Made by a program: the position numbers and the translations under genes
Part shown: one piece after another, positions 3,654-45,723 of the stretch
Layout: each line of letters opens with the position of its first letter
Numbering within the stretch: position 1 is the first letter of the stretch
Notes under the pieces: model-generated
Databases searched by the model: none
What the model saw: only the letters and a program-made list of their open reading frames with translations
Told to the model about the DNA's origin: nothing
Assembly (NCBI GenBank): GCA_964636505.1
Contig: CAZWRY010000002.1
Location: forward strand, 17,248 to 81,247
Reading direction: 5' to 3'
Length of the DNA: 64,000 bases
From: an uncultured Bdellovibrionales bacterium
GTDB taxonomy: Bacteria; Patescibacteriota; Minisyncoccia; Moranbacterales; UBA2206

Positions 3654-5042
3654 TTATTCAGAAATTAATTTTACGGTTTCGCTAACCAAACCTTCTATTG
3701 AAATATCCGATTGATTGTCGTTGAATCCATCAGCGGCTACCTTTATTTGATATGTTCCTTTTGCAAGATATGGCAGTGTTGTCGGGAAAAAGGCCAATCC
3801 ATATTTGTCAGTAGTCAGAGTAACGTCATAACCGGCCGTTTCATTTTTTAAATTAACCGAGGCCCCTTCAATAGCAATACTTTCATCGCTGGCTCTGACT
3901 ACTTTAATCAGCAGCGAGTCGGCTGTTTTATCCGCAAAAATTGCCTTGACATCCATTGCTGTATTGGGTGCCAAATCAAACTGGACATTTAAATTCTGTC
4001 CGGGATCAACTTTTATGAATCGGTACTGGCTGGTTGAATCAGAAAAAACAAAAGTGTATGTTCCATAACTCATATTTTCCAGAATTTTTTCTCCCGTTTC
4101 CCCTGAATTGAGATTTTGGTTAAAAGTAAAAAGCTCAACTGAAGGAACATCCAATGTGTCTCCCTGTTTTCTGCCCCCAGAAAGATTAAATCCTATATTT
4201 TTAACTCTGTTACCCAAGGGATCTTCGGTGGTTAAATTTATACTGGAAATCTTGTCCGTTATGACTGCTTTCATATTTAATGTATCTGCAATAACTGAAG
4301 CGTGTATATCTACCGGATTAAAAGTACTTGTCGGATAGGGCGGATAGGTGTTTGCCGAATAATATCCGCTTTTTGAAACTTCCAATGAATAGTTGCGATC
4401 ACCGACTGGCATAGATGGAAGAGAAATATTACCCGTATCATCAGAAGAAACGGTCATATCCACTCCCTCAGATTGATTCTTGATACGGACTTGAGCTTGA
4501 GGTATGCCGTTGCCTGAATTATCTAAAATATTCAAGGCAAGCGTGCCGCCGCCCACGCTTTTTTCAACTCCGATAGGAGAAAAAATAGAAACAAGGAAAA
4601 CGGTTCGGCTTTTCATCGGATCGGTCCCCCAGGCAACTGTTATCTTTACTTCTTTATAATCATTTGGAATCGCATCATTGGGAACCAACCCTTGTTTTCC
4701 ATCATAAGCATCGTCTATGTATTTTATAAAGGTAGAAACATAATAAGTATTGGTATTTTGAATAACTGTTTCTTCGGCCAAAATATCTCCCCGCGGTACA
4801 CTCGTTGTGGTTCCGATGTCATCGTAGTCAAGATTTCTGATTATTTCCATTTTTTCATTCGCCAAAGCAGTCGCTTCTAATTTGAATTTTGATTCTCTGA
4901 TGTATTTGATTCCCAAAATAGCGGTTTGATAAAAACAAACCGCTATCAAGGAAAAAATAAGCAAAACAATCATTGCTTCCACCAATGTAAAACCGGCTGA
5001 AGCTTTTGTTTTTATTTTCCCTCCAAAAAAATGAACAAGCAT
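3654..5042 (-). CDS. Large type IV pilin-like protein (prepilin N-terminus plus Ig-like/carboxypeptidase-regulatory-like repeats).
   Basis: 462 aa; leader ...ASAG|FTLVEAMIVLLIF; repetitive beta-rich C-terminal region. Confidence 0.7.
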   Translation of the reverse strand: MLVHFFGGKIKTKASAGFTLVEAMIVLLIFSLIAVCFYQTAILGIKYIRESKFKLEATALANEKMEIIRNLDYDDIGTTTSVPRGDILAEETVIQNTNTYYVSTFIKYIDDAYDGKQGLVPNDAIPNDYKEVKITVAWGTDPMKSRTVFLVSIFSPIGVEKSVGGGTLALNILDNSGNGIPQAQVRIKNQSEGVDMTVSSDDTGNISLPSMPVGDRNYSLEVSKSGYYSANTYPPYPTSTFNPVDIHASVIADTLNMKAVITDKISSINLTTEDPLGNRVKNIGFNLSGGRKQGDTLDVPSVELFTFNQNLNSGETGEKILENMSYGTYTFVFSDSTSQYRFIKVDPGQNLNVQFDLAPNTAMDVKAIFADKTADSLLIKVVRASDESIAIEGASVNLKNETAGYDVTLTTDKYGLAFFPTTLPYLAKGTYQIKVAADGFNDNQSDISIEGLVSETVKLISE

Positions 5043-10609: not shown

Positions 10610-13459
10610 CTACAGGTATTTCCCCGTCCAGCTTTTTTTGATTTTTTTGAGCTTGTCCGGTGTACCAGCATAAACAACTTCCCCTCCCTGGTCTCCGCCA
10701 TCCGGTCCCAAATCAATGACCCAATCTGAATTCCTGATCACATCTATATTGTGCTCCACGACCACAACCGTATTGCCTTTATCCACTAGCGCGTCTAACA
10801 CGCCTAATAACATTTTAACATCTTCAAAATGAAGACCGATAGTTGGTTCATCCAAAATATAGAGGGTTTGGCCGGTTGATTTTCTGGCCAATTCCGTAGC
10901 CAGCTTTATTCTTTGCGCTTCTCCGCCGGATAAACTTGTGGCGCTTTGACCAAGCTTAAGGTAGCCCAAGCCCACATCCTCAAGAGTTTTTAATTTTTCA
11001 AAAATCAAAGGCGATTTCTTGAAAAATTTTAAAGCATAAGAAACACTCATGTCCAAAACTTCGGCGATATTGGCTCCTTGATATTCAATATCCAAGGTTT
11101 TACGATTATATCTTGTTCCTCCGCATGATTCACATTTAACATACATATCCGGTAGGAGATACATTTCAATTTTTTTTGTTCCTTCTCCTTGACAATTTTC
11201 GCATCGCCCGCCCTTCATGTTAAAACTAAAACGGCTGGCCGTATAGCCTCTTTTTTTAGCTTCCGGCGTTGCCGCGAAAAGATCGCGAATTAAAGAAAAA
11301 ACACCCGTATAAGTAGCCGCGTTTGACCTTGGTGTCCTTCCAATCGGAGTTTGATTAATGTTAATTACTTTATCAATGTTTTTTATGCCATCAATTTTTC
11401 TGTATTTTCCCGGCACATCCTTGGCTCTATAAAAATATTTGGCCAGATATTTAGCCAAGATATCTGAGACTAACGTTGATTTGCCCGATCCGGAAACACC
11501 CGTGATTGAAACAAATTTGCCCAAAGGAATTTCCACATCAATATTTCTCAGGTTATGCTCGCTGGCGCCGGTTATTTTTATGAATTTTTTATTGCCTTTG
11601 CGATATGTCTTTTTATTCACGACTTTTTTGCGGCCGATAATATAGTCGGCTGTAGCTGTTTTTGACTTGAGAAGCTTTTGAAAATCCCCCTGAAAGATAA
11701 CTTCTCCGCCTTCCTCTCCGGCACCGGGACCCATATCAATAATCCAGTCAGCTTTACGGATAATGTCCTCGTCGTGTTCCACAACTATCAAAGAGTTTCC
11801 GCCTTCTCGCAAAGATTGCATGGTCCCAATTAACTTTTCCGTATCCCGATTATGGAGTCCGATAGAAGGCTCGTCCAAAACATAGGTGATGCCGGTAAGT
11901 TCCGCTCCAATTTGAGTTGCCAAACGAATTCTTTGGGCTTCTCCGCCGGAAATCGATTCTGCCCGGCGAGAAAGAGAAAGATAGTCCAAGCCTACATTTA
12001 TCAGCGCTTCGGTTTTTATCAATATTTCTTTAATAATACCGTTGGCAATTTCTTTCTTGTCCGAACTGTCACAAGAAGCTTTGACTTCTTTTAGAAAAGC
12101 CTTTAGCTTTTCTAGATCCAAATTGACCACATCGTCAATTGATTTTTCACCGATCATAACCGCCAGATATTCCTTTTTTAGTCTTTTGCCTTCACAAGCC
12201 GGACAAACTTTTTCCAACATATATTTTTCCAGGTCGCTGCGGACATATTCAGAAGTTGACTCTTCATATTTTTTCTTAAGAATGGCAGCAACGCCTTCAA
12301 AAGGAACTTCAATCTGCTTAAGTCCGCCCATGTCGTTTTTCTGTTCCACTCTGATCTCTTTTTTGTCCGGTCCATAAAAAATAATTTCCAGAGCTTTAGG
12401 TGAAAGTTTTTTGACCGGAACATCAACAGAAAAAGAATATTCCTTAGCCAAAGCCCTCAAAATATTTAGATAATTGCTCTGTCCGCTCAGTCTTCCGTTA
12501 GATTTACTCCAAGGTAAAATGGCTCCTTCTGAAAGGGTCAGGTTTTTATTTGGGATTACTAAATCCAAATCAACTTCTTTGGTAATTCCAAGGCCGGCGC
12601 AATATCCGCAAGCTCCTTCCGGATTGTTAAAAGAAAAGTGTCTGGGAGTTATTTCATTTATCCTGGTTTGACAAGTATGACAAACAAAATCGCGATTAAA
12701 GACTGAATCTCCTTCTTCTTCGGAAAAAACAATAATAGATCCGCCGCCAACTTTCATGGCTGTTTCAATTGAATCCAAGAGCCTTTCTTCATCCTGGTTT
12801 TCACCCCTAATATTGATTCTATCTACCACCACTTCAATGGCCGAGTTAAACTTATCACTCACAATCAGCAAAGCCTCATTGGTTAACATTATCTTTCCAT
12901 CAAATCTGACTCTGGCGTAACCCAAATGACTGATGCTACGCAAAATTTCACGCGAACTTTTGCCTTCTTCTTTTACTTTAGCCATAATAACTACTTGCGA
13001 ATTTTTGGGAAATTTTAAAATTCTTTCTAAAATTTCCTGGTTGGTTTTCTTGGACATAAGTTCTCCGCAAACCGGACAATAAGGCATTCCGATTTTGGAA
13101 AAAAGAATCCTAAGATAATCATAAATTTCCGTAAGTGTTCCAACAGTTGAACGCGGGCTACGACTCAAACTTTTCTGATCAATGGAAATAGTCGGGCTAA
13201 GATTTTCAATTTTATCCATATCCGGCTTAGCCGCTACATCCAAGAATTGCCGGGCATAGGACGACATTCCCTCCAGATATCTGCGATTGCCTTCCGCATA
13301 AACTAAATCAAAGGCTAAAGATGATTTACCTGAACCTGAAAGCCCGGTTACCACCACCAATTGATTGCGAGGAATATCAATATCCACATTTTTCAGATTA
13401 TTGACTCTGGCCCCGCGAATAATTATCTTATCCCTTGAGGAAGAAACTTTTTTTGACAT
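10610..13459 (-). CDS. uvrA: Excinuclease ABC subunit A (UvrA), copy 1.
   Basis: 949 aa; two ABC modules (GLSGSGKSSLAF..., [11 protein letters not shown]), zinc-finger insertions, LSGGEAQRI signatures. Confidence 0.92.
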   Translation of the reverse strand: MSKKVSSSRDKIIIRGARVNNLKNVDIDIPRNQLVVVTGLSGSGKSSLAFDLVYAEGNRRYLEGMSSYARQFLDVAAKPDMDKIENLSPTISIDQKSLSRSPRSTVGTLTEIYDYLRILFSKIGMPYCPVCGELMSKKTNQEILERILKFPKNSQVVIMAKVKEEGKSSREILRSISHLGYARVRFDGKIMLTNEALLIVSDKFNSAIEVVVDRINIRGENQDEERLLDSIETAMKVGGGSIIVFSEEEGDSVFNRDFVCHTCQTRINEITPRHFSFNNPEGACGYCAGLGITKEVDLDLVIPNKNLTLSEGAILPWSKSNGRLSGQSNYLNILRALAKEYSFSVDVPVKKLSPKALEIIFYGPDKKEIRVEQKNDMGGLKQIEVPFEGVAAILKKKYEESTSEYVRSDLEKYMLEKVCPACEGKRLKKEYLAVMIGEKSIDDVVNLDLEKLKAFLKEVKASCDSSDKKEIANGIIKEILIKTEALINVGLDYLSLSRRAESISGGEAQRIRLATQIGAELTGITYVLDEPSIGLHNRDTEKLIGTMQSLREGGNSLIVVEHDEDIIRKADWIIDMGPGAGEEGGEVIFQGDFQKLLKSKTATADYIIGRKKVVNKKTYRKGNKKFIKITGASEHNLRNIDVEIPLGKFVSITGVSGSGKSTLVSDILAKYLAKYFYRAKDVPGKYRKIDGIKNIDKVININQTPIGRTPRSNAATYTGVFSLIRDLFAATPEAKKRGYTASRFSFNMKGGRCENCQGEGTKKIEMYLLPDMYVKCESCGGTRYNRKTLDIEYQGANIAEVLDMSVSYALKFFKKSPLIFEKLKTLEDVGLGYLKLGQSATSLSGGEAQRIKLATELARKSTGQTLYILDEPTIGLHFEDVKMLLGVLDALVDKGNTVVVVEHNIDVIRNSDWVIDLGPDGGDQGGEVVYAGTPDKLKKIKKSWTGKYL

Positions 13460-13566
13460 ATTAAAAGATTTATTTAATGGGAAATTATTCTAAAAATAAG
13501 TTCCTGTTTGCAATAACTAATAGTACAGCAATCCTTTTTGTTTGTAAACCCCTTATCAACAAAAGA

Positions 13567-13604
13567 AGCCCGGAAAGGATAACGATCCTTTCCGGGCTTT
13601 TTGG
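13567..13604 (-). terminator. Strong bidirectional rho-independent terminator downstream of uvrC.
   Basis: 13-bp perfect stem AGCCCGGAAAGGA / TCCTTTCCGGGCT with a 6-nt loop and T-runs on both strands. Confidence 0.75.
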
Positions 13605-13787
13605 TCTTTCCCAATCAGCCTCAACGGATTCCTCGGACTCCGTTGAGATTTTTTAAATAACCGCTCTTATCATCTTCCTAACCTCCCTCTTGGATTTGGA
13701 TTTGGTTTTTCCCCGTTTTTCCGGGCTCCGGCTCCATTAGCCTCCTTTCTTAGGATTTTTGGCAACTCTCTTTTTATCCTATTTTAC

Positions 13788-15086
13788 TTATTTTGTCAAG
13801 AATTCGCTTTTTCTCATCTTTCTGTGATATCCAATTGCAAAACGATGCGCTTCATCTATGATTCTACCTAATAACTCTCTATCGTCTGCTATTTTTTTAA
13901 AATCATTTGAAAATTCTGTAATTGGAAATTGCTTGCCCGCTGGGCACAGCCAGAGATCAGAAATTAGAAATTGGAAATTGGAAGTTTTTCGTGTAGGACC
14001 CTTGGCAACAGCAATAATCGGAACTTTTATTCCTAAGCTCCTTAATAATTTCTCTGCCATGTTTAAGTGTCCTTGCCCTCCATCCAAGAGAATCAAGTGA
14101 GGCATCGGCCAATCATTTTTAAATCTACGTAGCAGCACCTCTTGCATCATTCCGATATCATTAATGCCCTCAACGGTTCTGATTTTGAATTTTCGGTACT
14201 GAGATTTGTTTGGCTGGCCTCCCTCAAAAACCACCATGGAGCCGACTGCGTTTTTTCCGCTAATATTGGAAATGTCGTACGCTTCAATACGAATAGTTTT
14301 TAGTTTATGTTTTTTAGTTTTTAGATCAATTTCAAAATCTTTTGAAATCAAAGCCACATCACGAATATGATTTAGCGCAAAAACTTTATTTCTTATTTCC
14401 GCCGCCTTTTCAAATTCATGATTCTTGGCTGCTAACTGCATTTCTTTTTCCAGTGTTTTAACCAGATTTTTTTTCTTACCTTCCAAAATCATCTGGATAC
14501 CATGGATATTTTTTTGATAATCTTTGAGAGTAATTGCACCGGCGTGTGGTCCCGGACAAAGTCCCAACTGAAAATCCAAACAGCCTTTTTCGGTTTCCTG
14601 CTTATTGGAATGAAAGGGGAAAATACGGCGAATTATTTTGAGCGCTACCTCCATTTGTTTTTTAAAAGTATATGGACCAAAAGCAGTTCGTAGTTTATAG
14701 TTTTTGGTTTGTAGTTTTTTAAAATCAATTTCCGTTTTTCGTAAAATCAAAACTCGCGAAAATTCTTCTTTAGTAATAACGAAATAGGAAAATGATTTAT
14801 CATCTTTAAGTTCAATGTTATATTTCGGCTGATATTTTTTGATCAAATTGCTTTCCAAAATCAAAGCCTCCAGAACAGAATCAGTCTTTTGAAAGTCAAT
14901 ATCGGCAACTTTCGGCATCATAACTTCAATATGATTTCTGGTTTCCGCGCCCCGAAAGTACGAAGCCACCCGGCTTTTTAAATTAGTTGCTTTTCCAATA
15001 TATAAAATATTTTTGGCTTTATCTTTGAAAATATATACTCCGGGATCTGATGGCAATTTGGCAATTTTTATTTTCATCTTTGACAT
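13788..15086 (-). CDS. uvrC: Excinuclease ABC subunit C (UvrC), short form without the C-terminal HhH2 domain.
   Basis: 432 aa; N-terminal GIY-YIG (PGVYIFKDKAKNILYIGKATNLKSRV), UVR domain (EFEKAAEIRNK), RNase H-like endonuclease region (RIEAYDISNISG...LLDGGQGHL...HRFAIGYHRK). Contains in-frame heptamer-repeat insertions. Confidence 0.85.
   Translation of the reverse strand: MSKMKIKIAKLPSDPGVYIFKDKAKNILYIGKATNLKSRVASYFRGAETRNHIEVMMPKVADIDFQKTDSVLEALILESNLIKKYQPKYNIELKDDKSFSYFVITKEEFSRVLILRKTEIDFKKLQTKNYKLRTAFGPYTFKKQMEVALKIIRRIFPFHSNKQETEKGCLDFQLGLCPGPHAGAITLKDYQKNIHGIQMILEGKKKNLVKTLEKEMQLAAKNHEFEKAAEIRNKVFALNHIRDVALISKDFEIDLKTKKHKLKTIRIEAYDISNISGKNAVGSMVVFEGGQPNKSQYRKFKIRTVEGINDIGMMQEVLLRRFKNDWPMPHLILLDGGQGHLNMAEKLLRSLGIKVPIIAVAKGPTRKTSNFQFLISDLWLCPAGKQFPITEFSNDFKKIADDRELLGRIIDEAHRFAIGYHRKMRKSEFLTK
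13921..13985. repeat. Miniature heptamer-repeat element inside uvrC, in frame: ATTGGAAATTG, a GC-rich hairpin segment, then AGAAATT AGAAATT GGAAATT GGAAG.
   Basis: Shares the 11-mer ATTGGAAATTG and AGAAATT tandem units with the rpoB-rpoC spacer at 60730..60775, and a GGCAAG-containing GC-rich segment with the uvrB insertion at 21855..21880. Confidence 0.7.
14295..14324. repeat. AGTTTTT-type heptamer tandem array (4 units) inside uvrC.
   Basis: AGTTTTT AGTTTAT GTTTTTT AGTTTTT; a second array lies at 14685..14720. Confidence 0.6.
14685..14720. repeat. AGTTTWT heptamer tandem array (5 units) inside uvrC.
   Basis: AGTTCGT AGTTTAT AGTTTTT GGTTTGT AGTTTTT; encodes the Lys-rich KKLQTKNYKL segment. 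Confidence 0.6.
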
Positions 15087-15130: not shown

Positions 15131-15526
15131 ATGCCAAAGAAAGGAGACAGTATGTGCATGATGTATCCGGTACCGTCAAAAAAATGCGTTTTTGGGCCTG
15201 ATTTTAAGGCTGTAATTGAACATTTGCTCATGCACTTTAAAGTACATGAGTTGTATTTTTGTCGACCTGGAAATGACTGCTTGATCGTCTATCCGAGAGA
15301 AAATGTTCCTTTTAAAGTTACTGAGCCCCTGGAATTCTTTTATGACTCCGAGCAAAAGAAAAGAGGAATAATCAGCCCGGGAACCTATTTCATAAAAGAA
15401 CATTCTGTTTTTCCGTCGGGCCATCAACTGGTCTTGCAAAAAAACAACGCGGATAACCGGCTTCTCCCTTGTTTTACCTGGAAAGATGGCCCGGGCATTG
15501 ATTGGAGAGGAATAACAGCACAATAA
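15131..15526 (+). CDS. Hypothetical protein (cassette gene 1); probable start at 15152 after a GGAG ribosome-binding site.
   Basis: 131-aa ORF on the opposite strand from the flanking uvr genes; AAAGGAGAC precedes the ATG at 15152 by 7 nt; locally GC-richer; no recognisable domain. Confidence 0.5.
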   Translation: MPKKGDSMCMMYPVPSKKCVFGPDFKAVIEHLLMHFKVHELYFCRPGNDCLIVYPRENVPFKVTEPLEFFYDSEQKKRGIISPGTYFIKEHSVFPSGHQLVLQKNNADNRLLPCFTWKDGPGIDWRGITAQ

Positions 15527-15545: not shown

Positions 15546-15857
15546 ATGCAGATAATAGAAGAAGTATTGCTGGAAGATTTAAGAGCAGGCGATATTCTGC
15601 TTTATGAAGTCAAAAGCGACGGCAGTTTTATCCTTGAAGCCTTTAGGCAAAATTGCCTATCGGGAGAAACGTCAACTTATTTCAGAGTGTTTTTTGATGA
15701 TTACTTCATCAAAAAACTTTGGGAACACCACTGCTACAATCAACCGGGCAGTCACAACGCTTTTATTAAATCTCTGGCTGATTGGGTTGCCTTAAAAGGG
15801 GTGGTTATGACCGAACGTCAACTTTGGCCTAAGTATCCGCTCTGCAAGGTGTCCTAA
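15546..15857 (+). CDS. Hypothetical protein (cassette gene 2).
   Basis: 103 aa; AAAGGAGAAAAAA then ATG; 19-nt gap after gene 1; followed by a terminator. Confidence 0.5.
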   Translation: MQIIEEVLLEDLRAGDILLYEVKSDGSFILEAFRQNCLSGETSTYFRVFFDDYFIKKLWEHHCYNQPGSHNAFIKSLADWVALKGVVMTERQLWPKYPLCKVS

Positions 15858-15938: not shown

Positions 15939-18824
15939 TTATTTTTTCAAAACATCCCCGAGATATTTAGCAGTGTAACTTTCCTTTTGATATTTGATAA
16001 TTTCTTCCGGCGTTCCGCTTACAATGACTCGCCCGCCTTGCTCTCCGCCTTCCGGTCCCAAATCAATAATCCAGTCAGCTGTTTTGATAATGTCCATATT
16101 GTGCTCAATAACCACCACGGTATTGCCGGCATCAACTAATTTATTAAGTACGCCTAAAAGTTTTTTAATGTCATCAAAATGAAGACCCGTCGTCGGCTCA
16201 TCTAAAATATACAGCGTGTTTCCGGTTGAACGGCGCGCCAGTTCTGTGGCTAATTTTATCCTTTGCGCTTCTCCGCCGGAAAGAGTTGTGGCTGATTGGC
16301 CCAAATGAATATAGTCCAGTCCGACTTCTTCCAAAATTTTAAGCTTGTCATGAATTTCTGGAAAATTTTCAAAGAAAATTTTGCCTTCTGAAACCGTCAT
16401 TTCCAAAACATCGGCAATATTTTTACCTTTATATTTTACTTTCAGAGTTTCACTGTTGTATCTTTTGCCTTTGCAGACATCGCAAGGCAAATAAACGTCT
16501 GGCATAAACTGCATTTCAATTTTCAAAAATCCTTCGCCTTGGCAATTTTCACATCTTCCCCCATTTACATTAAAGGAGAATCTCCCTGGCAAATATCCCT
16601 TGGCTTTAGCATCTTTAGTTTTGGCAAAAAGTTCTCTGATCGGAGAAAAAAGCCCTGTGTAAGTGGCAGGATTAGAACGCGGAGTGCGACCGATTGGAGA
16701 TTGATCAATCATAATTACTTTATTGACATGTTGCGACCCAATTATTTCCGAATGTTTCCCTGGACGATCCAATGATCGCATTATCTTTGAAGCTAAAGAT
16801 TTATACAAAACATCTTCTACTAGAGTTGATTTTCCTGATCCGGAAACTCCAGTCACAACAGTCAAAACTTTGAGTGGAAATTCCACGGTAATATTTTTTA
16901 GATTATTTTCTCTAGCTCCACGCACCACAATCATTTTTTTATTTTTAATCGGACGACGAAAACTGGGGACTTCAATTTTTTCTTCACCACTAAGATATCT
17001 GGCCGTTAAAGATTTTTTGCTTTTCATCACTTCTTGAGGAGAACCTTCGGCCACAATTTCTCCGCCCGCTTTACCTGCGCCTGGACCAATATCAACTAAA
17101 TAATCCGCAGCTCTAATCGTTTCCTCATCATGTTCAACCACAATCAAAGTATTTCCGATATCACGTAAATCCAAAAGTGTTTTTAATAATTTTTTATTAT
17201 CCCGCGCATGCAGACCGACTGATGGCTCATCCAAAATATATAAAACTCCGACTAATTGCGATCCGATTTGAGAAGCCAAACGAATTCTTTGCGTCTCTCC
17301 TCCAGCCAAAGTGGCCGCTGATCTTCCCAGCGTTAAGTATCCAAGGCCAACATTATCCAAAAATCCCAAACGCGCTTCAATTTCTTTCAAAATTCTGCCC
17401 GCAATCAAATCTTCTTTTTTGCTGAGTTTTAATTTTTTGAAAAAATCCAAAGCTTCACTCACACCGACGGTAGAAACTTCGTAGATATTCTTCCCGCTAA
17501 CGGTCACCAGCAAAGCTTCCTTCTTGTATCTTGAGCCATGGCAAACCGAACAAGGATTTTGCGACATATATTTTTCAATGTCTTTTCTCACTCCATCTGA
17601 ATCAGTTTTTGCGTAGCGATCTTCCAAATATCCGGTTATGCCCCGCCAATTCAAATTATATTTCCAAACCGAACCGGTTTTACTGCGCAAAGTTACCGGA
17701 ACTTCTTCGGCTTCTTCTGCCGAAATCGGACAATAAGCATTTTCTTCGCCATAGAGCAAAATATTCAAATTTTCTTGGGATAAATCTCTGATACGAACAT
17801 TATCTTTGATATGAAAATGATTGGTCACCGCTCGTAGAATCGTGCCTTGCCAATTATTTTTTTTGTAGCTCCAAGGCATTATTCCGCCCTCGGCAATCGT
17901 TTTGTTTTTATCAGGAATCACCAAATTAATACCCATTTCTTTTTTAGTTCCCAATCCCTCACAAACCGGACAAGCCCCATAAAGAGAGTTAAAAGAAAAA
18001 AGTCTCGGTTCCATTTCCGGAAAATTTATTTCGTCATGAACCGGACAAGATAATTTTTGATTAAAAATAAGTTCCGCTTCTTTTTGCTTCCTATCTCTTG
18101 TTCCTTGTTTCTTTATTTTCACCAGCCCATCCGACAACTTCAAGGCCTTTTCAGTATCTTCAAAAATACGAGGAATATTTTCATCACTAATAGCCATCGT
18201 ATCCACTACAACATCAATTGTGTGTTTTTTGTATCTATCTAAAGTTATTTTTTCTTTAGGATTAAGCTCAACTTTTTTGCCATTAACATAGGCTTTGGAA
18301 TAACCGCGGCGATACATATCCAAAAGAAGGGCTGAGTATTCACCTTTGCGTCCGCGTACAATCGGACTCAGAATTTCAATTTCTTTTTTATCGCCGACAC
18401 TTAAAATACGATCCACAATTTCATCCGTGGAAAGCTTGGTTATTTCTCGTCCACAAATCGGACAATGAGGAATACCAATTTTGGCATAAAGCAAACGCAA
18501 ATAATCATGAATCTCTGTCACCGTTCCGACAGTTGACCTCGGATTATGCGAAGCTGATTTTTGATCAATAGAAATTGCCGGCGAAAGACCCTCAATGTAG
18601 TCCACATTTGGTTTGTCCATTTGCCCCAAAAATTGCCGAGCGTAACTGGACAAACTTTCCAAATATCGTCTCTGGCCTTCGGCAAAAATAGTATCAAAAG
18701 CTAGCGTTGATTTTCCGCTACCGGAAATCCCCGTAAATACAACAAATTTATTGCGCGGCAAATTCAGATTTATATTCTTAAGGTTATGCTCTCTCGCCCC
18801 GCGAATGATGATTTCGTCTTTCAT
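15939..18824 (-). CDS. uvrA: Excinuclease ABC subunit A paralogue (UvrA, copy 2), full length.
   Basis: 961 aa; same architecture as copy 1 ([23 protein letters not shown], zinc fingers) but clearly diverged in sequence. Confidence 0.9.
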
Positions 18825-18891: not shown

Positions 18892-18932
18892 AAAAAGGCA
18901 TTGACTGATATTGCATGTCAATGCCTTTTTTT
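18892..18932 (-). terminator. Bidirectional rho-independent terminator after the 18945..19919 gene.
   Basis: Perfect 9-bp stem GGCATTGAC / GTCAATGCC flanked by A- and T-runs. Confidence 0.7.
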
Positions 18933-18944
18933 GCGTTTGCGAAA

Positions 18945-19919
18945 TTATTCCATCAGGACTAGGATCTTCCCCCTGATTTCAGCCTTTTTGGCCTCCATAA
19001 CGGAGAGGAATTTTTGGGCCGCCGCTAGCTCATCCTCCAGCCTCCGAACATTTTCGGCCAGGTTTTTTGTCTCGGTCTGAAACTCTACATATTCAGCCGA
19101 AAGAACTTCCAATTCCGTCTTGGCCGGTTCTTTTTGCTCGGAATTAAGACTGGGTATCTCCGCTTTTTTCTGTTCCTGATCCGAATGTCCAGCTTGTATA
19201 TCTTTTTGTAAGCCAAGAAGTTTTTGTCCCTTCTCAGCCAAAGAGAAATAAACTTTTATACGAGAAGTGGACGCCACTTTCTCAATATATCTCTCCTTTT
19301 CCAAAAATTTCACAGCCTGGGTTTCTGAACACTTGATACCCAGAGAAACAATAGTCTTCTTCAGCTGGCTCTGAAGAATCCTGCCGAACTCCGCCATCTG
19401 GACCTCCAGGAGAATAACCTTTATAGTTTCTTCGTCCAGAACATCGGCCACTATCCTCCGCGTAAAAAGCAGAGGGGCTTCTGTTAGGGCTGGAATTCCA
19501 GATGCAACTCTGCCCGCATTGTTTGCTCTCATCTTTTCTTGTCCCCTTTCTCCTTTTTTTATTTTATTTTTCTTTTCGTTCCGAAGATTAAATTCAACTT
19601 CGGCCTTTTTTAACAGATTAAAGAAGCTTTGTTCTTTTTCCGTATAGCCTTCCGGACGGAAAAAGAAGCAGTTAAACCGAGTCCCATTATCTCCCGGCTT
19701 CACTGCCACAACAACTGACCCTCTCTTGGGGTCTATTCTTTTAACTTCCAGCGGGCAGCAATGGGCAGAGCCTTTGATTTGCTCACCCAGATGAATATTT
19801 AATTCATAATCTTTTCTGTCAAACTGGACCAGTTCGAGGAACTCCTCAAGCAATTTCAACATTCCTTTCGGAATGTCTGTTGAGTGGGGTCCCTTCTTTA
19901 TACAAACTCTTTTTACCAT
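18945..19919 (-). CDS. Hypothetical protein: Cys-containing N-terminal domain, central winged-helix-like segment, C-terminal coiled coil. GC-richer than its neighbours.
   Basis: 324 aa; segment AEFGRILQSQLKKTIVSLGIKCSETQAVKFLEKERYIEKV...YFSLAEKG resembles a MarR/ArsR-type wHTH; heptad-rich tail; about 47% GC against about 35% in flanking genes. Confidence 0.5.
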   Translation of the reverse strand: MVKRVCIKKGPHSTDIPKGMLKLLEEFLELVQFDRKDYELNIHLGEQIKGSAHCCPLEVKRIDPKRGSVVVAVKPGDNGTRFNCFFFRPEGYTEKEQSFFNLLKKAEVEFNLRNEKKNKIKKGERGQEKMRANNAGRVASGIPALTEAPLLFTRRIVADVLDEETIKVILLEVQMAEFGRILQSQLKKTIVSLGIKCSETQAVKFLEKERYIEKVASTSRIKVYFSLAEKGQKLLGLQKDIQAGHSDQEQKKAEIPSLNSEQKEPAKTELEVLSAEYVEFQTETKNLAENVRRLEDELAAAQKFLSVMEAKKAEIRGKILVLME

Positions 19920-20058
19920 CCCTCGCTTCCTCCTTTCTCCTTTGAGTATTTTGTTGTTCAGGTACAGCTTGAAAATTTAGCATAAATTGGCTAAAAAGTC
20001 AAGAAAAAAGCCCTGAGCATTTCTGTCTAGGGCTCTAAAAAGTCTTTATTTAAAGGTT

Positions 20059-21015
20059 TTATTGGCAACTGCCACCTTGTGTTGTGGTGGTTGCCGAACT
20101 TAAAACCTTGGCACATTCGGCTGGAGCTTTGTTGAAAGCACTGCAAATGGCTTTTTTGTAGCCTTCTGAATCGCCATAGGAATATACGACATTTGATAAA
20201 ACCTCGTTAATTAAAAATGTTGGCGAGCCATTGGCTCCCGCCGCATTTGAAACTTTTTCGTTTTCTTTCATAAGAGTAACGCCTTGAGAGGATACACAAC
20301 TATTAACCGCAGCTACACTCAGGCCAGCATTTTTAATTCCGGCCTCCCAACAAGATCCATCGCTACTACAATTTTTGTTTATATAAGACACAAATGTAAA
20401 CCATTTATCTTTGCCATAGGTTTTTAAAACACAAGCTTCTCTTTCATTTTGAGCCACTTCCTTATCGCCATGCAAAGATCGAATGGCATCACCTTCAGAA
20501 TTTACAATATAGTGAAAATTGAAATTAACTTTATTCTTTAATAAATCATAAACGGGCTTTAATGTGTCTTCGGCTTTATTGCCAAAAGGACAAAAACTCA
20601 TTGTATATAGGTCAACTGTCGGCTTGTCATTTTTCGGAATTTCCATATTGGCTTTCTGCGCTGCCGCTTGTTGCTGGTTTTTCATCTCCTGAATTTTTTT
20701 CTTAATTTCATCAATATTAATTGCTTCCGGAAAAAATAATTTTCCGTCTTTGGTTGCATAGGATTCAACTTCTTGTTGCCCGTCATTCAAACTGATAGCT
20801 ATTTTATATATTCCGTTTTCCGAAACAACCTTTTTAATTTCGGCTTTCATTCCAGCTTGCAACAAGTTTTCATTGATAAAAGACTCCATGTTAACTTTGA
20901 CTTCTTCAGGACTCATCTGTAAAGAACTTCCTTTGATGGTAAGTAACGGACGACTGCAACCGGTAACAACGATCGCAGCCAGAGCTACAAATATCAATAT
21001 GCCTGTTTTTTTCAT
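20059..21015 (-). CDS. Lipoprotein of unknown function.
   Basis: 318 aa; signal peptide with lipobox VVTGC|S. Confidence 0.6.
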   Translation of the reverse strand: MKKTGILIFVALAAIVVTGCSRPLLTIKGSSLQMSPEEVKVNMESFINENLLQAGMKAEIKKVVSENGIYKIAISLNDGQQEVESYATKDGKLFFPEAINIDEIKKKIQEMKNQQQAAAQKANMEIPKNDKPTVDLYTMSFCPFGNKAEDTLKPVYDLLKNKVNFNFHYIVNSEGDAIRSLHGDKEVAQNEREACVLKTYGKDKWFTFVSYINKNCSSDGSCWEAGIKNAGLSVAAVNSCVSSQGVTLMKENEKVSNAAGANGSPTFLINEVLSNVVYSYGDSEGYKKAICSAFNKAPAECAKVLSSATTTTQGGSCQ

Positions 21016-21090: not shown

Positions 21091-23142
21091 TCATTTTACC
21101 TTCAATTTTCGTAACTCGGAGATTTCATCGCGAATAATAGCCGCACTTTCAAACTGAAGACTGCGAGCCGCTTCTTTCATATCCTTTTCTCTTTGCTTAA
21201 TATACCCCGCAATGTTTTCCAGGCTTTCCAAATTGACAAATTCTTTGGAAATTTCCGGTTTGATTTCATGATCCACAATAGATTGAATTTTTTTCTGAAT
21301 AGTCTGAGGAGTAATGTGATGCTTTTTATTATACTCAGCTTGAATTTTTCTTCGGCGATTGGTTTCATCAATCGCTCGCTTCATTGAACCGGTAATTTGA
21401 TCGGCATACAAAATAACCCGCCCGGAAACATTTCTGGCCGCACGTCCGATTGTTTGAATAAGTGAAGTTTCACTGCGCAAAAATCCTTCCTTATCCGCAT
21501 CCAAAACCGCTACTAATTTAACTTCCGGCAAATCCAGTCCTTCACGCAATAAGTTTACTCCAACCAGAACATCAATTTCCCCCCGACGCAATTTTTCCAA
21601 AATTCTGACCCGATCCAAGGTTTCCACATTAGAATGCAAATATTCCGCTTTGATTTTATTTTCCTTTAAGAAATCGGATAAATCTTCGGCCATTTTTTTG
21701 GTAAGCGTCGTAATTAAAACTCGACCATTATCCTCCACTACTTTTCCAATTTCAATTAAAACATCTTTGACTTGTCCTTGGGTTGATTTTATCGCGAGCT
21801 CAGGATCAATGAGACCTGTTGGACGAATAACTTGCTCCACAATACCGTATTTTGCATCTTGCCTACCGGCGAGACAGATATTTTTTAATTTGTTTTTAAT
21901 TTGCGATTTGGAATTTATTTGGAATTTAGAATTTAGAATTTGTGATTTGATATATTCATACGGCCCAGGTGTCGCTGAAGTAAAAATTACCTGGTTTGTT
22001 TTTTCTTCAAATTCAGAAAATCTGAGCGGACGATTTTCATAGGCACTGGGCAAACGAAAACCATTATCAATCAAAGCGGTCTTGCGAGCCCGATCACCAT
22101 TAAACATGGCATTCAGCTGCGGCACGGTCACATGCGATTCATCAATGACCAAAAGATAGTCTTTATTAAAGTAATCCATCAATGTATATGGCGGTTCGCC
22201 TTTTTTTCTTTCAGTCAAATACAAAGAATAATTTTCAATACCATTGCAATAGCCGACTTCGCGCATCATTTCAATGTCCTGCTTGGTTCTTCTTTTCAAT
22301 CTTTCCGCTTCCAATAATTTATTTTCTTTTTTCAAATAAGCGACTCTGCCTCGCATCTCTATCTCTATCCTTTTTAATGCTTCTTCCATCAAGCCTTCAG
22401 GAACCACAAAATGTTTGGCTGGATAAATCAAAGTTTGTTTCAAGGTTCCCAGCTCTTCACCGGTCAAAAAATCATATTCCACAATTTTCTTTACCCTGCC
22501 CTTTTCAGCATTAATTCTGGTCACAATTTCGCGATCTGTCGGCATAATTTCCAATGTTTCACCGGTAAGTCTGAATTTGCCGCGGCTAAGCAATTCGCTT
22601 CTTTGAAACTGCATATCAATCAACTCTTTTATTTTTTCTTCTCGTTTGAATTCTTCGCCCACTTTTACTTCAAAACTGATATCCCGATAAAAATCCGGCG
22701 AACCCAAACCATAGATACAAGAAACAGAAGCCACAATAATCACATCACTCCGTGAAAGCAAGGCGGAAGTTGAAGCATGGCGCAAACGATCAATTTCATC
22801 ATTAATCTGCGCCTCTTTTTCAATATATGTGTCCGAAGAAGCGATGTAGGCTTCCGGCTGATAATAGTCATAGTAAGAAACAAAATATTCCACCGCATTC
22901 TTGGGAAAAAACACGCGAAATTCTTGCGCCAATTGGGCTGCCAAAGTTTTGTTGGGCGCAATCACCAAGGTTGGTTTTTGTACTTTTTCAATGACATTGG
23001 CAATTGTGAAAGTTTTACCCGATCCCGTCACACCCAAAAGCGTCTGGAATTTTTGTCCCTTTTTGAGTCCTTCCGTCAGCTTTTTAATCGCCTCTGGCTG
23101 ACTTCCGGCCGGTTTAAATTTTTTATTCAGAATAAATTTCAT
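21091..23142 (-). CDS. uvrB: Excinuclease ABC subunit B (UvrB) carrying an in-frame insertion of about 28 aa.
   Basis: 683 aa; helicase motifs (GVTGSGKT, DESH), beta-hairpin region, C-terminal UVR domain (FESAAIIRDEI). The insertion YIKSQILNSKFQINSKSQIKNKLKNICLAGRQDAKYG lies between ...SATPGPYE and IVEQVIRPTGL. Confidence 0.92.
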   Translation of the reverse strand: MKFILNKKFKPAGSQPEAIKKLTEGLKKGQKFQTLLGVTGSGKTFTIANVIEKVQKPTLVIAPNKTLAAQLAQEFRVFFPKNAVEYFVSYYDYYQPEAYIASSDTYIEKEAQINDEIDRLRHASTSALLSRSDVIIVASVSCIYGLGSPDFYRDISFEVKVGEEFKREEKIKELIDMQFQRSELLSRGKFRLTGETLEIMPTDREIVTRINAEKGRVKKIVEYDFLTGEELGTLKQTLIYPAKHFVVPEGLMEEALKRIEIEMRGRVAYLKKENKLLEAERLKRRTKQDIEMMREVGYCNGIENYSLYLTERKKGEPPYTLMDYFNKDYLLVIDESHVTVPQLNAMFNGDRARKTALIDNGFRLPSAYENRPLRFSEFEEKTNQVIFTSATPGPYEYIKSQILNSKFQINSKSQIKNKLKNICLAGRQDAKYGIVEQVIRPTGLIDPELAIKSTQGQVKDVLIEIGKVVEDNGRVLITTLTKKMAEDLSDFLKENKIKAEYLHSNVETLDRVRILEKLRRGEIDVLVGVNLLREGLDLPEVKLVAVLDADKEGFLRSETSLIQTIGRAARNVSGRVILYADQITGSMKRAIDETNRRRKIQAEYNKKHHITPQTIQKKIQSIVDHEIKPEISKEFVNLESLENIAGYIKQREKDMKEAARSLQFESAAIIRDEISELRKLKVK
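21845..21952. repeat. Miniature heptamer-repeat element inside uvrB, in frame: a GC-rich segment plus a GGAATTT / AGAATTT tandem array.
   Basis: GATTTGGAATTTATTTGGAATTTAGAATTTAGAATTTGTGATTTG plus GCCTACCGGCGAGACAG; the encoded ICLAGRQ parallels LCPAGKQ encoded by the uvrC element. Confidence 0.65.
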
Positions 23143-44112: not shown

Positions 44113-45279
44113 TTGCAATCCTCGCTTAAATGTCTATTTTCACTGCTAATTATTATTTTCAACATTATGACAAAAATACTCTACCAAAATGAGCAAAGAA
44201 AACGGGAATTTCTCGAGCATTTGAAAGGTGCGGAAGGTTTCTCTGAAAGCTCCATCAATACCTTTGCTGAAGCCGTAGACCAATGGCAGATTTTCACCGA
44301 AAACGATGACTTTGCTAATTTCAACAAGTCAAAGGCTCTATCTTTTCGAGACTGGCTGAAAACTAGAAAATCCAACACTGAAAACGGCACAATTTCACTG
44401 GTAACACAATATAACTATCTTCGCCGAGTAAAAAGATTTTTCACTTGGCTAGCGGGGCAACCAGTTTATAAAAACAAAATTTTAAAGAATGACGTGGAAT
44501 TTTTACGCCTTTCTAAGGGAGATGCCCGCATAGCTCGCCAAGGCACGACCAAGCAAATGCCCACTTTTGAAGAAGCAAGGGCAATAATTGAAAGCATAGC
44601 GATAAAAAACGAAATAGATATGCGAGACCGAGCATTTATCTCCTTTATTCTTACTACTGGTATTCGCATTCACGCCGCCGCAACCTTGCGAATGAAAAGT
44701 TTTGACGCGAAAAACAGACTGATAGACCAAAATCCGGCAGACGGTATAAAAACCAAAAATTCAAAACGGATACTAACCACTTTCTTTCCTATAGGCTGGG
44801 ATGAACCGGAAAAATATTTTTTGGAATGGTTTGATTATTTAAAATCAAAAGGTTTCCGGCCAGATGACCCGATTTTTCCAGCTACACTAAATAATTTGAT
44901 TTCTGGAAGACAAGCTTACAGCCAAAATTCAATCGGCAGAAATTTTTGGAGCGGCACGAGCGGTGCAAGAAAAATTTTTGAGAAAAGATGTAAAAATGCT
45001 GACCTGCCATATTTTCATCCACATTCTTTCCGCCATTTGGTAGTTAACATTTTGAGTAAAACCCGTCTCACAGAAGAAGAGAAACGGGCCATAAGTCTTA
45101 ACCTTGGGCACGCCAATGTCGGCACGACTTTTGGTTCATATGGCTATGGAAGTATGACTGAAGATGACGCAGTCAAAATAGTGCAGAAATTGAAAGCAAC
45201 CAATCAAGACGGGAGCAATTTAGTCCTTTCAGATGATGAAAGAGCTGTTTTTGAGCGAGTTATAAATAGAATTTTATAA
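44113..45279 (+). CDS. Tyrosine-type site-specific recombinase/integrase. The true start is probably the ATG at 44167 (MTKILYQNEQ...).
   Basis: 388 aa; N-terminal SAM-like core-binding domain; catalytic R...HSFRH...LGHANVGTTFGSYGY (R-H-R-Y). Confidence 0.8.
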   Translation: MQSSLKCLFSLLIIIFNIMTKILYQNEQRKREFLEHLKGAEGFSESSINTFAEAVDQWQIFTENDDFANFNKSKALSFRDWLKTRKSNTENGTISLVTQYNYLRRVKRFFTWLAGQPVYKNKILKNDVEFLRLSKGDARIARQGTTKQMPTFEEARAIIESIAIKNEIDMRDRAFISFILTTGIRIHAAATLRMKSFDAKNRLIDQNPADGIKTKNSKRILTTFFPIGWDEPEKYFLEWFDYLKSKGFRPDDPIFPATLNNLISGRQAYSQNSIGRNFWSGTSGARKIFEKRCKNADLPYFHPHSFRHLVVNILSKTRLTEEEKRAISLNLGHANVGTTFGSYGYGSMTEDDAVKIVQKLKATNQDGSNLVLSDDERAVFERVINRIL

Positions 45280-45543: not shown

Positions 45544-45723
45544 ATGGAATTTCTCACACTTGAACAAGTGGCTAAATACTTTGGAGTTCATCCTCGCACC
45601 GTTATGCGTTGGCTTAAGCAAGGCAGTCTCAAAGGTTATAAGTTGGGCAAAGGCAAAACGGCTCTTTTACGCATCCCCAAATCAGAAGTAAGTAAATTTT
45701 TAGAAAAACATAAAATCAAATGA
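45544..45723 (+). CDS. Excisionase / MerR-like HTH DNA-binding small protein; its stop overlaps the recombinase start (ATGA).
   Basis: 59 aa, below the ORF-track cutoff: MEFLTLEQVAKYFGVHPRTVMRWLKQGSLKGYKLGKGKTALLRIPKSEVSKFLEKHKIK; helix-turn-helix_17-like. Confidence 0.55.
   Translation: MEFLTLEQVAKYFGVHPRTVMRWLKQGSLKGYKLGKGKTALLRIPKSEVSKFLEKHKIK

What the first reader, a model, noticed from the sequence alone, without database searches (positions are those of the whole stretch)
18945..19919. GC-shifted gene for a Cys-rich / winged-helix / coiled-coil protein embedded in the NER cluster
About 47% GC against about 35% around it, flanked by a perfect bidirectional terminator. The domain layout (N-terminal Cys-containing domain, central MarR/ArsR-like wHTH, long heptad C-terminus) suggests a DNA-binding regulator or SMC-like accessory protein. 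Its position between uvrA2 and uvrB makes it a candidate DNA-damage regulator in a lineage that commonly lacks LexA. It could also be foreign cargo.
Basis: inference. Interest (0 to 1): 0.5.

Follow-up and report, generated by a model that had tools for sequence, protein, structure and literature searches.

The report
Uncharacterised winged-helix DNA-binding protein family
The gene is real and encodes a member of a small, unnamed protein family (probably from the tiny-celled Patescibacteria) with a conserved domain that nothing matched, a winged-helix DNA-binding domain and a coiled-coil tail; its relatives often sit beside DNA-repair genes, so a role in controlling repair is plausible but unproven.

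Summary
The ORF at 18945..19919 (-), 324 aa, is a real, vertically inherited gene, not foreign cargo. It has its own promoter, a strong ribosome-binding site and a conserved terminator.

The GC shift is real but smaller than reported: 43.6% against 37.6% for the window. Its GC3 of 0.455 is the highest of 39 window ORFs.

An AlphaFold model built on 41 homologues (pLDDT 85.7) shows three parts:
- A beta-alpha-beta4 N-terminal domain with nothing matched, carrying the family's most conserved motifs (G10-x-H12, P17, KPGDNGTR).
- A 55-residue heptad coiled coil at the C-terminus.

It is not Cys-rich. Pfam, NCBIfam, PHROGs, PADLOC and PDB sequence searches find nothing. An exhaustive search finds 39 cluster representatives, one of them from Candidatus Moranbacteria.

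In 4 of 9 distinct genomic contexts an immediate neighbour is a DNA-repair or replication gene (UvrA, a RecB/Cas4-like nuclease, an AlkD-like enzyme, PolA-Fpg). One homologue is fused to a sigma-70 factor.

No conserved operator was found. The best reading is a dimeric winged-helix regulator or DNA-binding factor linked to genome maintenance. A specific role as a DNA-damage regulator remains a hypothesis.

The parts
18945..19919 (-). Coding sequence of the 324-aa protein (stop codon 18945-18947)
   Evidence: ORF list. It is 100% identical to database protein P0001, which is seen on several independent metagenome contigs. Full-length homologues share 33-54% identity (alignment A2).
19635..19919 (-). 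N-terminal domain, residues 1-95: b1(5-9) a1(20-31) b2(40-49) b3(57-63) b4(68-73) b5(80-87). It carries the family-defining motifs G10-x-H12, P17, G50-S and K74-P-G-D-N-G-T-R81.
   Evidence: AF2 model md9df786cf4fd, block pLDDT 79-97. No Pfam or PDB sequence match.
19524..19634 (-). Long basic helix, residues 96-132 (pI 10), with no clean heptad register
   Evidence: AF2; composition and heptad test
19452..19523 (-). Low-confidence, poorly conserved linker, residues 133-156
   Evidence: pLDDT 49-54 over residues 131-150, below 50 for 146-152. This stretch is length-variable in alignment A3.
19206..19451 (-). Winged helix-turn-helix domain, residues 157-238: H163-175, b180-182, H183-192, recognition helix H199-208, wing b212-217/b223-227, H229-234
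19116..19205 (-). Second low-confidence linker, residues 239-268
   Evidence: pLDDT about 48; variable in length and sequence
18948..19115 (-). C-terminal coiled-coil helix, residues 269-324 (about 8 heptads)
   Evidence: A single helix 269-323 with pLDDT 91-98. 13 of 16 a/d positions are hydrophobic in one register (LLYFTLVLLALMKIIL). Many coiled-coil chains are hit by the profile.
19974..20002 (-). Promoter-like site: TTGACT, 17 nt, TAAATT with TG extension
   Evidence: Promoter scan. Most of the homologous loci examined show a TTGAC(T/A), about 17 nt, TAnAAT-like element at a similar position by eye.
19929..19936 (-). Shine-Dalgarno AAAGGAGG, 9 nt before the ATG
   Evidence: Read directly from the sequence. 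GGAGG is present before the start codon in all homologous loci examined.
18892..18930 (-). Intrinsic terminator hairpin of the gene (14-nt perfect arms including A/T runs)
   Evidence: It is conserved in the orthologous loci L018 and L003 with a compensatory T-A to C-G change in the stem (GGCATTGA/TCAATGCC against GGCATCGA/TCGATGCC).
20004..20036 (-). Weaker hairpin plus T-run that ends the upstream lipoprotein gene, isolating the target as its own transcription unit
   Evidence: Sequence; fold -13.5 kcal/mol, z -2.0

Best explanation
The gene encodes a member of an unnamed, narrowly distributed family of DNA-binding proteins. The one named member is from Candidatus Moranbacteria, and the window itself looks like a Patescibacteria genome (inferred).

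Shown:
- The protein has three modules joined by flexible linkers: a conserved N-terminal alpha/beta domain with no sequence match in Pfam or the PDB, a canonical MarR/PadR-like winged helix, and a C-terminal heptad coiled coil.
- It is transcribed alone, from its own sigma-70-type promoter to its own conserved terminator.
- It is inherited vertically.

Inferred mechanism:
- The coiled coil makes a parallel dimer, or a higher oligomer.
- That oligomer presents two winged helices to DNA, as the C-terminal helices do in PadR and Phr.
- The N-terminal domain carries the family-specific function. Its three conserved Gly/His/Ser/Lys/Asp/Asn/Arg loops should lie at one end of the sheet, given the beta-alpha-beta crossover followed by a meander. 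That site would bind a ligand or a partner.
- Neighbours are recurrently DNA repair or replication enzymes, often divergently transcribed, and one homologue is fused to sigma-70. I therefore take it to be a transcription regulator acting on genome-maintenance genes, possibly through contact with the RNA polymerase holoenzyme.

Which genes it controls, and what signal it senses, are not shown.
For: - Gene reality and inheritance: ORF with promoter, RBS and terminator. The terminator shows a compensatory change in the orthologous loci. Synteny uvrB - Trx-like lipoprotein - X - uvrA is kept in P0002/L018/L003 and, with two extra genes between the lipoprotein-position gene (no Pfam hit) and X, in P0003. 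Against L018, UvrB is 76% identical, X 50% and the lipoprotein 31%.
- Profile search of PDB sequences: weak hits to the ArsR-family chain 2p4w over profile positions 200-315, plus several MarR chains.
- Coiled coil: 81% hydrophobic a/d positions in one register.
- Family: 39 representatives at E<=1e-3, almost all 300-340 aa with the same layout. The N-domain is the best conserved part.
- Context: UvrA; a PD-(D/E)XK RecB/Cas4-like nuclease, divergent; an AlkD-like DNA_alkylation gene, divergent; PolA-Fpg, divergent; PolA-Fpg-HolA within five genes and HU adjacent; DnaX two genes away.
- Fusion: sigma-70 (regions 2 and 4) fused in frame to the family on three contigs.
Against: - No operator could be identified. 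No palindrome is shared upstream of the gene in 11 loci beyond what shuffles give. No motif is shared by the uvr promoters of the window.
- Several contexts have no repair gene: L7/L12, HU/S16, an ABC transporter. Patescibacterial genomes are rich in information-processing genes, so the enrichment is post hoc. It is roughly 1 in 100 if 5-6% of genes are replication or repair genes, and that share is my assumption, not a measurement.
- In the window the gene is insulated from uvrA2 and from the lipoprotein gene by terminators, so it is not co-transcribed with the uvr genes.
- The winged-helix fold also occurs in non-regulatory proteins (ScpB, MukF, RecQ RQC), which appear at similar Z.
- The arrangement of the three modules relative to each other is not predicted (pTM 0.47).
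Confidence: 0.5

Rival explanations
1. It is the DNA-damage-response regulator of the nucleotide-excision-repair cluster, repressing or activating uvrA2, uvrB and uvrC and responding to damage, in place of or beside LexA.
For: - It sits immediately upstream of uvrA in the window and in the two or three closest lineages.
- More distant homologues sit beside other repair genes.
- No canonical LexA box (GAAC-N4-GTTC or CTGT-N8-ACAG) occurs anywhere in the 64-kb window.
Against: - The uvrA adjacency is lost already at 44% identity (P0009: HU - X - S16) and at 35% identity.
- The uvr promoters share no operator.
- The uvrA2 5'-UTR palindrome TTGCCTTAAGGTAA is unique in the window and absent from the orthologous locus.
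- There is no self-cleavage (S24 peptidase) or other known damage-sensing module.
- A DNA-damage-inducible network has been described for Patescibacteria and is cited among LexA/SOS studies (title).
Confidence: 0.2
2. It is a nucleoid-associated or chromosome-organising protein. The winged helix binds DNA with little specificity and the coiled coil bridges or oligomerises. This includes the reader's 'SMC accessory' idea.
For: - Strong promoter and RBS in every locus.
- Overall basic protein (pI 9.0).
- Adjacent to HU in two contexts, and near ribosomal-protein, rpo and replication genes.
- No conserved operator was found.
Against: - The ScpB, MukF and JetA hits are no better than dozens of MarR/PadR regulators, so they reflect the generic fold.
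- ScpB has two tandem winged helices and no coiled coil. No Pfam ScpB or kleisin match.
- No smc or scpA gene is seen next to any family member.
- The most conserved part is the N-terminal domain, not the DNA-binding surface.
Confidence: 0.2
3. It is foreign cargo: a recently acquired mobile, phage or plasmid gene inserted into the uvr cluster, which would explain the GC shift.
For: - Highest GC3 of 39 window ORFs (z 2.6).
- Its own promoter and terminators on both sides.
- An integrase and a serine recombinase exist elsewhere in the window, at 44-47 kb.
Against: - The same gene order occurs in lineages whose UvrB is only 76% identical, and the terminator is orthologous.
- No relative in INPHARED phages, PLSDB plasmids or IMG/VR, nor in PHROGs or PADLOC.
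- GC3 lies at the top of a continuous distribution; YchF is 0.438.
- The recombinases are 25 kb away.
- Orthologues in other genomes are not GC-shifted.
Confidence: 0.03
4. It is a general RNA-polymerase or sigma-associated factor, not a gene-specific regulator. The N-domain docks on the holoenzyme and the winged helix contacts promoter DNA.
For: - An in-frame sigma-70 (r2 + r4) fusion to a full-length family member on three contigs.
- Housekeeping-type neighbours: the L10/L12 region, S16, S20. rpoB and rpoC lie in the same window.
Against: - Only one fusion lineage is known, and its three contigs come from three consecutively numbered sequencing runs.
- No similarity to CarD, RbpA, delta or other known RNA-polymerase-binding modules.
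- The family has only 39 clusters at 50% identity, which is few for a general factor.
Confidence: 0.07

Closest known systems
MarR-family transcription regulators (e.g. E. coli MarR on operator DNA 5h3r; Sco3205 3zpl)
   Different: - Sequence identity is only 12-19% and there is no Pfam MarR hit.
- MarR proteins dimerise through N- and C-terminal helices packed directly on the winged helix.
- Here the winged helix is flanked by two disordered linkers, and dimerisation is presumably through a distal 55-residue coiled coil.
- MarR has no counterpart of the 95-residue N-terminal domain.
PadR family (B. subtilis PadR 5x11), and from memory the archaeal heat-shock regulator Phr (which I believe is the ArsR-family chain 2p4w) and TrmB
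   Same: - A winged helix followed by a long C-terminal helix that makes a coiled-coil dimer. This is the same working principle proposed here.
- PadR is among the top Foldseek hits.
- 2p4w (deposited as 'Transcriptional regulatory protein arsR family') is hit weakly by the family profile over the winged helix plus coiled coil (E 0.011, positions 200-315).
- A TrmB-like gene follows the family member in L019.
   Different: - No significant sequence-family match.
- In those proteins the helix follows the wing directly, whereas here a 30-residue disordered linker intervenes.
- None has the N-terminal beta-alpha-beta4 domain.
- TrmB's effector domain is C-terminal and sugar-binding.
- The architecture of Phr and TrmB is from my own knowledge, not a tool result.
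Damage-response regulators: LexA, and the LexA-independent PafBC, DriD and DdrO/IrrE (from memory)
   Same: The similarity is functional only. Each is a helix-turn-helix type DNA-binding module combined with a sensing module, controlling repair genes.
   Different: - No S24 peptidase domain (LexA), no WYL domain (PafBC, DriD) and no XRE-HTH/COG2856 pair (DdrO/IrrE) was detected.
- No homology to any of them.
ScpB, MukE/F and JetA (SMC-associated winged-helix proteins)
   Different: - These are generic fold matches, no better than the regulators.
- The domain count and order differ.
- No SMC or kleisin gene is nearby in any context.
- No Pfam match.

Membership tests
MarR family (Pfam PF01047/PF12802) | Significant match to a MarR-family sequence profile | tested here: not met
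   No Pfam hit at E<=1 for the protein. No MarR family among the hits of 41 family members. No NCBIfam hit.
MarR family (Pfam PF01047/PF12802) | Winged helix-turn-helix fold | tested here: met
MarR family (Pfam PF01047/PF12802) | Dimer interface formed by N- and C-terminal helices packed against the winged helix (compact protein of about 140-160 aa) | tested here: not met
   The winged helix is bounded by low-confidence linkers (133-156 and 239-268). The long helices are distal (96-132 and 269-323).
PadR family (PF03551) | Match to the PadR profile; winged helix immediately followed by a dimerising C-terminal helix | tested here: not met
   No Pfam hit. The fold is similar (5x11), but the coiled coil is separated from the wing by a 30-residue linker.
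LexA (SOS repressor) | C-terminal S24 peptidase domain with Ser-Lys dyad and Ala-Gly cleavage site | tested here: not met
   No Peptidase_S24 or LexA_DNA_bind hit in Pfam or NCBIfam. The C-terminus is a coiled coil.
LexA (SOS repressor) | Palindromic operator shared by its own promoter and the repair-gene promoters | tested here: inconclusive
   No shared palindrome above shuffled controls in 11 upstream regions. None among the uvr promoters. The set is small and divergent, so the power is low.
ScpB / SMC accessory | Two tandem winged helices; co-occurrence with scpA and smc | tested here: not met
   One winged helix only. No ScpB Pfam hit. No scpA or smc gene next to any of the 9 contexts.
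AbrB/SymE/MazE swapped-hairpin domain (considered for the N-domain after one member hit SymE_toxin at E 0.002) | Profile-level similarity to AbrB-type domains | tested here: not met
   hhalign of the 38-sequence N-domain alignment against a small AbrB/SpoVT/MazE/SymE alignment gives probability 3.6%. Only 1 of 38 members hits SymE_toxin.
The unnamed family itself (39 cluster representatives) | N-domain motifs G-x-H, P17 and [KQ]PG[DG]N-x-[TS]; central winged helix; C-terminal coiled coil; length 300-340 aa | tested here: met
   The window protein has all of these and is the query that defines the set.

The most novel reading that the evidence does not exclude
The family is a Patescibacteria-specific genome-maintenance regulator. 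Its N-terminal domain, which none of my searches could place, senses a nucleotide or DNA-damage-derived signal through three conserved Gly/His/Ser/Lys/Asp/Asn/Arg loops. It then switches repair and replication genes (uvrA, recB-like nuclease, alkD-like, polA-fpg) by working directly with the sigma factor. That would be a damage-response circuit unrelated to LexA, PafBC, DriD or DdrO.
Probability: 0.15. Interest if true: 0.7.

Novelty: new variant of a known kind. Interest (0 to 1): 0.42.

Why it matters
Very little is known about transcription regulation in Patescibacteria, whose reduced genomes encode few recognisable regulators. This family is uncharacterised: it has no Pfam, NCBIfam, PHROG or PADLOC model and no solved structure. 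It has a confidently predicted DNA-binding module and recurs beside repair and replication genes, and one member is fused to a sigma factor. That makes it a concrete, testable candidate for a lineage-specific regulator of genome maintenance. Its N-terminal domain may also be a new ligand- or partner-binding fold. If it turns out to be a generic winged-helix regulator or nucleoid protein, the result is a useful annotation for about 40 'hypothetical protein' clusters, but not a surprise.

Tried and rejected
- **Sequence libraries.** Pfam, PHROGs, NCBIfam, PADLOC and PDB sequence searches with the single protein found nothing.
- **Word-indexed homologue search.** It found only 8 relatives. A third search with the N-domain alignment unexpectedly returned nothing. 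The exhaustive phmmer run was what revealed the family.
- **First structure model.** AF2 with 5 sequences was too poor to use (pLDDT 56.8). The 41-sequence model replaced it.
- **AbrB/SymE link for the N-domain.** Rejected: hhalign probability 3.6%.
- **Operator hunting.** There are no LexA boxes of either classical type in the window. The uvrA2 5'-UTR palindrome is not repeated. K-mers shared among the uvr upstream regions are A/T-rich promoter-like strings. No palindrome is shared upstream of 11 family genes above shuffles. The DNA conserved between L001 and L009 looks, by my reading of the sequence, like the start of the divergent nuclease gene and a -35/-10-like pair for it.
- **GC shift as a family trait or expression signal.** Rejected. 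Orthologues are not shifted, and S6, RpoB and EF-P do not share the bias. The modest shift remains unexplained.
- **Scans of reference collections.** The window's clade is absent from the GTDB representative genomes. One distant member was found in a MAG labelled Bdellovibrionales; I did not verify that label. The metagenome scan added one syntenic locus.
- **Organism name.** The exact-sequence look-ups returned no source names for ten window proteins.
Full report

The minus-strand ORF at 18945..19919 (ATG to stop, 324 aa) exists exactly as described. It lies in a run of same-strand genes:
- uvrB, 21091-23142.
- A lipoprotein with a GILT/thioredoxin-like domain, 20059-21015 (Pfam GILT, 5e-8).
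- The target.
- uvrA2, 15939-18824.
- Two small orphan ORFs on the opposite strand.
- uvrC, 13788-15086.
- uvrA1, 10610-13459.

Both UvrA copies exceed NCBIfam's UvrA equivalog cut-off.

The GC shift is real but smaller than stated.
- The ORF is 43.6% GC against 37.6% for the window and 37.6-39.3% for its neighbours. That puts it at the 99th percentile of 975-bp windows.
- Only one 300-bp sub-window reaches 46%.
- The shift lies in synonymous sites. GC3 is 0.455, the highest of 39 ORFs (mean 0.346, sd 0.042), against 0.34 expected from its amino-acid composition.
- It sits at the top of a continuous distribution. YchF has 0.438.

The 'perfect bidirectional terminator' is a 14-nt perfect inverted repeat at 18892-18930.
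- It folds at -20.1 kcal/mol (z -4.8) on the gene strand.
- It lies only on the 3' side. A weaker hairpin at about 20004-20036 ends the upstream lipoprotein gene.
- A TTGACT-17-TAAATT promoter with a TG extension and an AAAGGAGG ribosome-binding site 9 nt before the ATG complete a monocistronic unit.

The protein is not Cys-rich. It has five Cys and no CxxC motif, and none is conserved across the family.

**2. What is it?**

No curated library recognises it: Pfam, PHROGs, NCBIfam, PADLOC and PDB sequences all returned nothing.

The word-indexed homologue search found only eight relatives. An exhaustive phmmer run over 1.84 billion cluster representatives found 39 at E<=1e-3, twelve of them at E<=1e-10. 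Nearly all are 300-340 aa and align end to end.
- One member, P0024 (HMN19526.1), is annotated as coming from Candidatus Moranbacteria.
- One distant member lies in a MAG labelled Bdellovibrionales. I did not verify that label.
- The window's gene content suggests Patescibacteria, but this is my inference. It has type IV pilus genes, RNase J and low GC, and no Rfam family matched anywhere in the 64 kb. Source names were not available.

With the 41-sequence alignment AlphaFold2 gives a confident model (mean pLDDT 85.7).
- Residues 1-95 form b1-a1-b2-b3-b4-b5.
- Residues 96-132 form a long basic helix.
- Residues 133-156 are a linker, largely at low confidence.
- Residues 157-238 form a textbook winged helix: H163-175, b180-182, H183-192, H199-208, b212-217, b223-227.
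- Residues 239-268 are low-confidence.
- Residues 269-323 form one long helix.

The fold searches agree on the central domain.
- Foldseek agrees, with PadR, FabT and MarR on DNA at probability about 1.
- A profile search of PDB sequences gives weak but coherent MarR/ArsR hits. One is the ArsR-family chain 2p4w, matched across the winged helix plus coiled coil.

The C-terminal helix has hydrophobic residues at 13 of 16 a/d positions in one unbroken register, so it is a genuine coiled coil.

The N-terminal domain is the best conserved part of the family. G10, H12 and P17 are nearly invariant. The b4-b5 hairpin carries [KQ]PG[DG]N-x-[TS]-R, which is KPGDNGTR in this protein. It has no sequence match in the PDB or Pfam.
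- One member's weak SymE_toxin hit prompted an AbrB-fold test, which failed (hhalign probability 3.6%).
- I could not search the N-domain's fold on its own. Every structural hit list is filled by the winged helix, and the AFDB library was unavailable.
- By topology, the three conserved loops (10-12, 50-53, 74-81) should lie at the same end of the sheet. This follows from a beta-alpha-beta crossover followed by an antiparallel meander, and it is what a binding site would look like. This is inference, not a measured distance.

**3. Foreign or native?**

The gene is native.
- The order uvrB - Trx-like lipoprotein - X - uvrA recurs in P0002 (loci L003 and L018) and, with two extra genes, in P0003.
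- Against L018, UvrB is 76% identical, X 50% and the lipoprotein 31%.
- The terminator hairpin is orthologous and shows a compensatory T-A to C-G change.
- Phage, plasmid and IMG/VR collections hold no relative.
- Orthologues in other genomes are not GC-shifted, so the shift in this genome is an unexplained local peculiarity.

**4. Genomic context across the family**

I obtained nine distinct contexts.
1. Window, P0002 and P0003: X sits directly upstream of uvrA.
2. P0004, P0005 and P0007: a PD-(D/E)XK RecB/Cas4-like nuclease is divergent from X, which is followed by Rrf2-IscS-NifU.
3. P0009: HU - X - S16.
4. P0008: L7/L12 - X.
5. P0011: sigma-70 (regions 2 and 4) fused in frame to a full-length X, followed by an ABC transporter. 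It is seen on three contigs.
6. P0013: PolA-Fpg-DUF3048-HolA, S20, X, HU, RNase Y.
7. P0014: an AlkD-like DNA_alkylation repair gene divergent from X.
8. L019: DUF3048-Fpg-PolA divergent from X, followed by a TrmB-like gene.
9. P0024 (Moranbacteria): S16-L10-L12, then two unannotated genes, then a HATPase_c_3 protein divergent from X, with DnaX two genes away.

An immediate neighbour is a repair or replication enzyme in four of the nine contexts. In two more, such genes lie within five genes. Four contexts show the divergent arrangement typical of a local regulator and its target.

If 5-6% of genes fall in this class, four of nine has a probability of about 0.01. That share is my assumption, and the test is post hoc with soft categories. 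It is suggestive, not proof.

**5. Does it regulate the uvr genes?**

I could not show it.
- The window contains no classical LexA box.
- The uvr upstream regions share only A/T-rich promoter-like strings.
- The palindrome TTGCCTTAAGGTAA in the uvrA2 leader is unique in the window and absent from the orthologous locus.
- No palindrome is shared by the upstream regions of 11 family genes beyond shuffled controls.
- With so few and such divergent loci, the power of these tests is low.

The premise that the lineage lacks LexA is doubtful. [quoted passage not shown] 9 of PMC8565304. I could not read it.

**6. Most likely mechanism**

Shown: a three-module protein with a confident winged helix and coiled coil, encoded by a stand-alone, vertically inherited gene.

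Inferred:
- The coiled coil dimerises the protein and presents two winged helices to DNA, as in PadR and Phr.
- The conserved N-domain binds a signal or a partner.
- The sigma-70 fusion suggests work at promoters together with the RNA polymerase holoenzyme.
- The recurrent repair and replication neighbours suggest genome-maintenance targets.

My confidence estimates:

| Claim | Confidence |
|---|---|
| Dimeric winged-helix DNA-binding protein | about 0.8 |
| Transcription regulator tied to genome maintenance | about 0.5 |
| Nucleoid or chromosome-organisation protein | about 0.2 |
| General RNA-polymerase-associated factor | about 0.07 |
| Foreign cargo | about 0.03 |

**7. Comparison with known families and verdict**

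- It works like MarR, PadR, Phr or TrmB-type regulators but is not a member of any of them. It has no profile match, a different dimerisation layout and an extra N-terminal domain (see the membership tests).
- It lacks every defining feature of LexA, and no WYL or XRE-type module was detected.
- It is best filed as a new variant of a known kind: a new winged-helix family with an unassigned N-terminal domain.
- Interest is moderate. The fold result alone is ordinary. The combination of lineage restriction, the unassigned conserved domain, the repair-gene neighbourhoods and the sigma fusion makes a testable hypothesis for regulation in a group where almost none is known.

Noticed in passing
window 10610-13459 and 15939-18824 (both -): Two full-length UvrA paralogues lie in one cluster (uvrB ... 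uvrA2 ... uvrC, uvrA1). Both score above NCBIfam's UvrA equivalog cut-off (1320 and 1457 bits against 1147). Why a small genome keeps two class-I-like UvrA genes side by side is unexplained.
   Followed up: partly
window 15131-15526 (+) and 15546-15857 (+): Two orphan ORFs (131 and 103 aa, GC about 41%) lie on the opposite strand between uvrA2 and uvrC. They have no hit in Pfam, PHROGs, NCBIfam or PADLOC. The contig carrying P0003 has a 103-aa and a 191-aa gene in the same place and the same relative orientation, so the pair may be conserved.
   Followed up: partly
window 13460-13787: A 328-nt non-coding gap between uvrC and uvrA1 has a purine-rich stretch (AAATCCAAATCCAAGAGGGAGG) and two GC-rich hairpins (e.g. 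CCGGAAAGGATCGTTATCCTTTCCGG). No Rfam family matches it. It may hold terminators or a small RNA.
   Followed up: no
L012 223-2007 (P0011); also L013, L014: An in-frame fusion joins a sigma-70 factor (regions 2 and 4) to a full-length member of the family. It is seen on three contigs from three sequencing runs.
   Followed up: partly
window 20059-21015 (-): A lipoprotein with a GILT/thioredoxin-like domain sits between uvrB and the target. The same position is occupied in L018 and L003 by a homologue at only 31% identity. It is an odd conserved passenger in a repair cluster.
   Followed up: partly
window 44113-45279 (+) and 45720-47360 (+): A tyrosine integrase and a large serine recombinase lie side by side, downstream of a low-GC (33%) 757-aa TPR protein at 40983-43256. 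This may be a remnant of a mobile element. The recombinase ORF overlaps the start of ychF (47293) by 68 nt.
   Followed up: no
window 18892-18930 against L018 about 4915-4955: The terminator after the target gene is conserved between lineages, with a compensatory stem change (T-A to C-G). Intergenic conservation of this kind is unusual at 50% protein identity.
   Followed up: yes
window 18945-19919: This ORF has the highest GC3 in the window (0.455). Amino-acid composition does not explain it, orthologues do not share it, and other presumably highly expressed genes do not show it. The cause is unknown.
   Followed up: partly
window 1-64000: No Rfam family reaches its gathering score anywhere in the 64 kb, so no tRNA, rRNA or riboswitch was detected.
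   Followed up: no
L001 4952-6091, L009 8764-9888: A PD-(D/E)XK (PDDEXK_1 + DUF7376) nuclease with weak Cas4 and AddA/AddB nuclease-domain similarity is conserved divergently from the family gene in one sub-clade, followed by a DUF2062 gene.
   Followed up: partly
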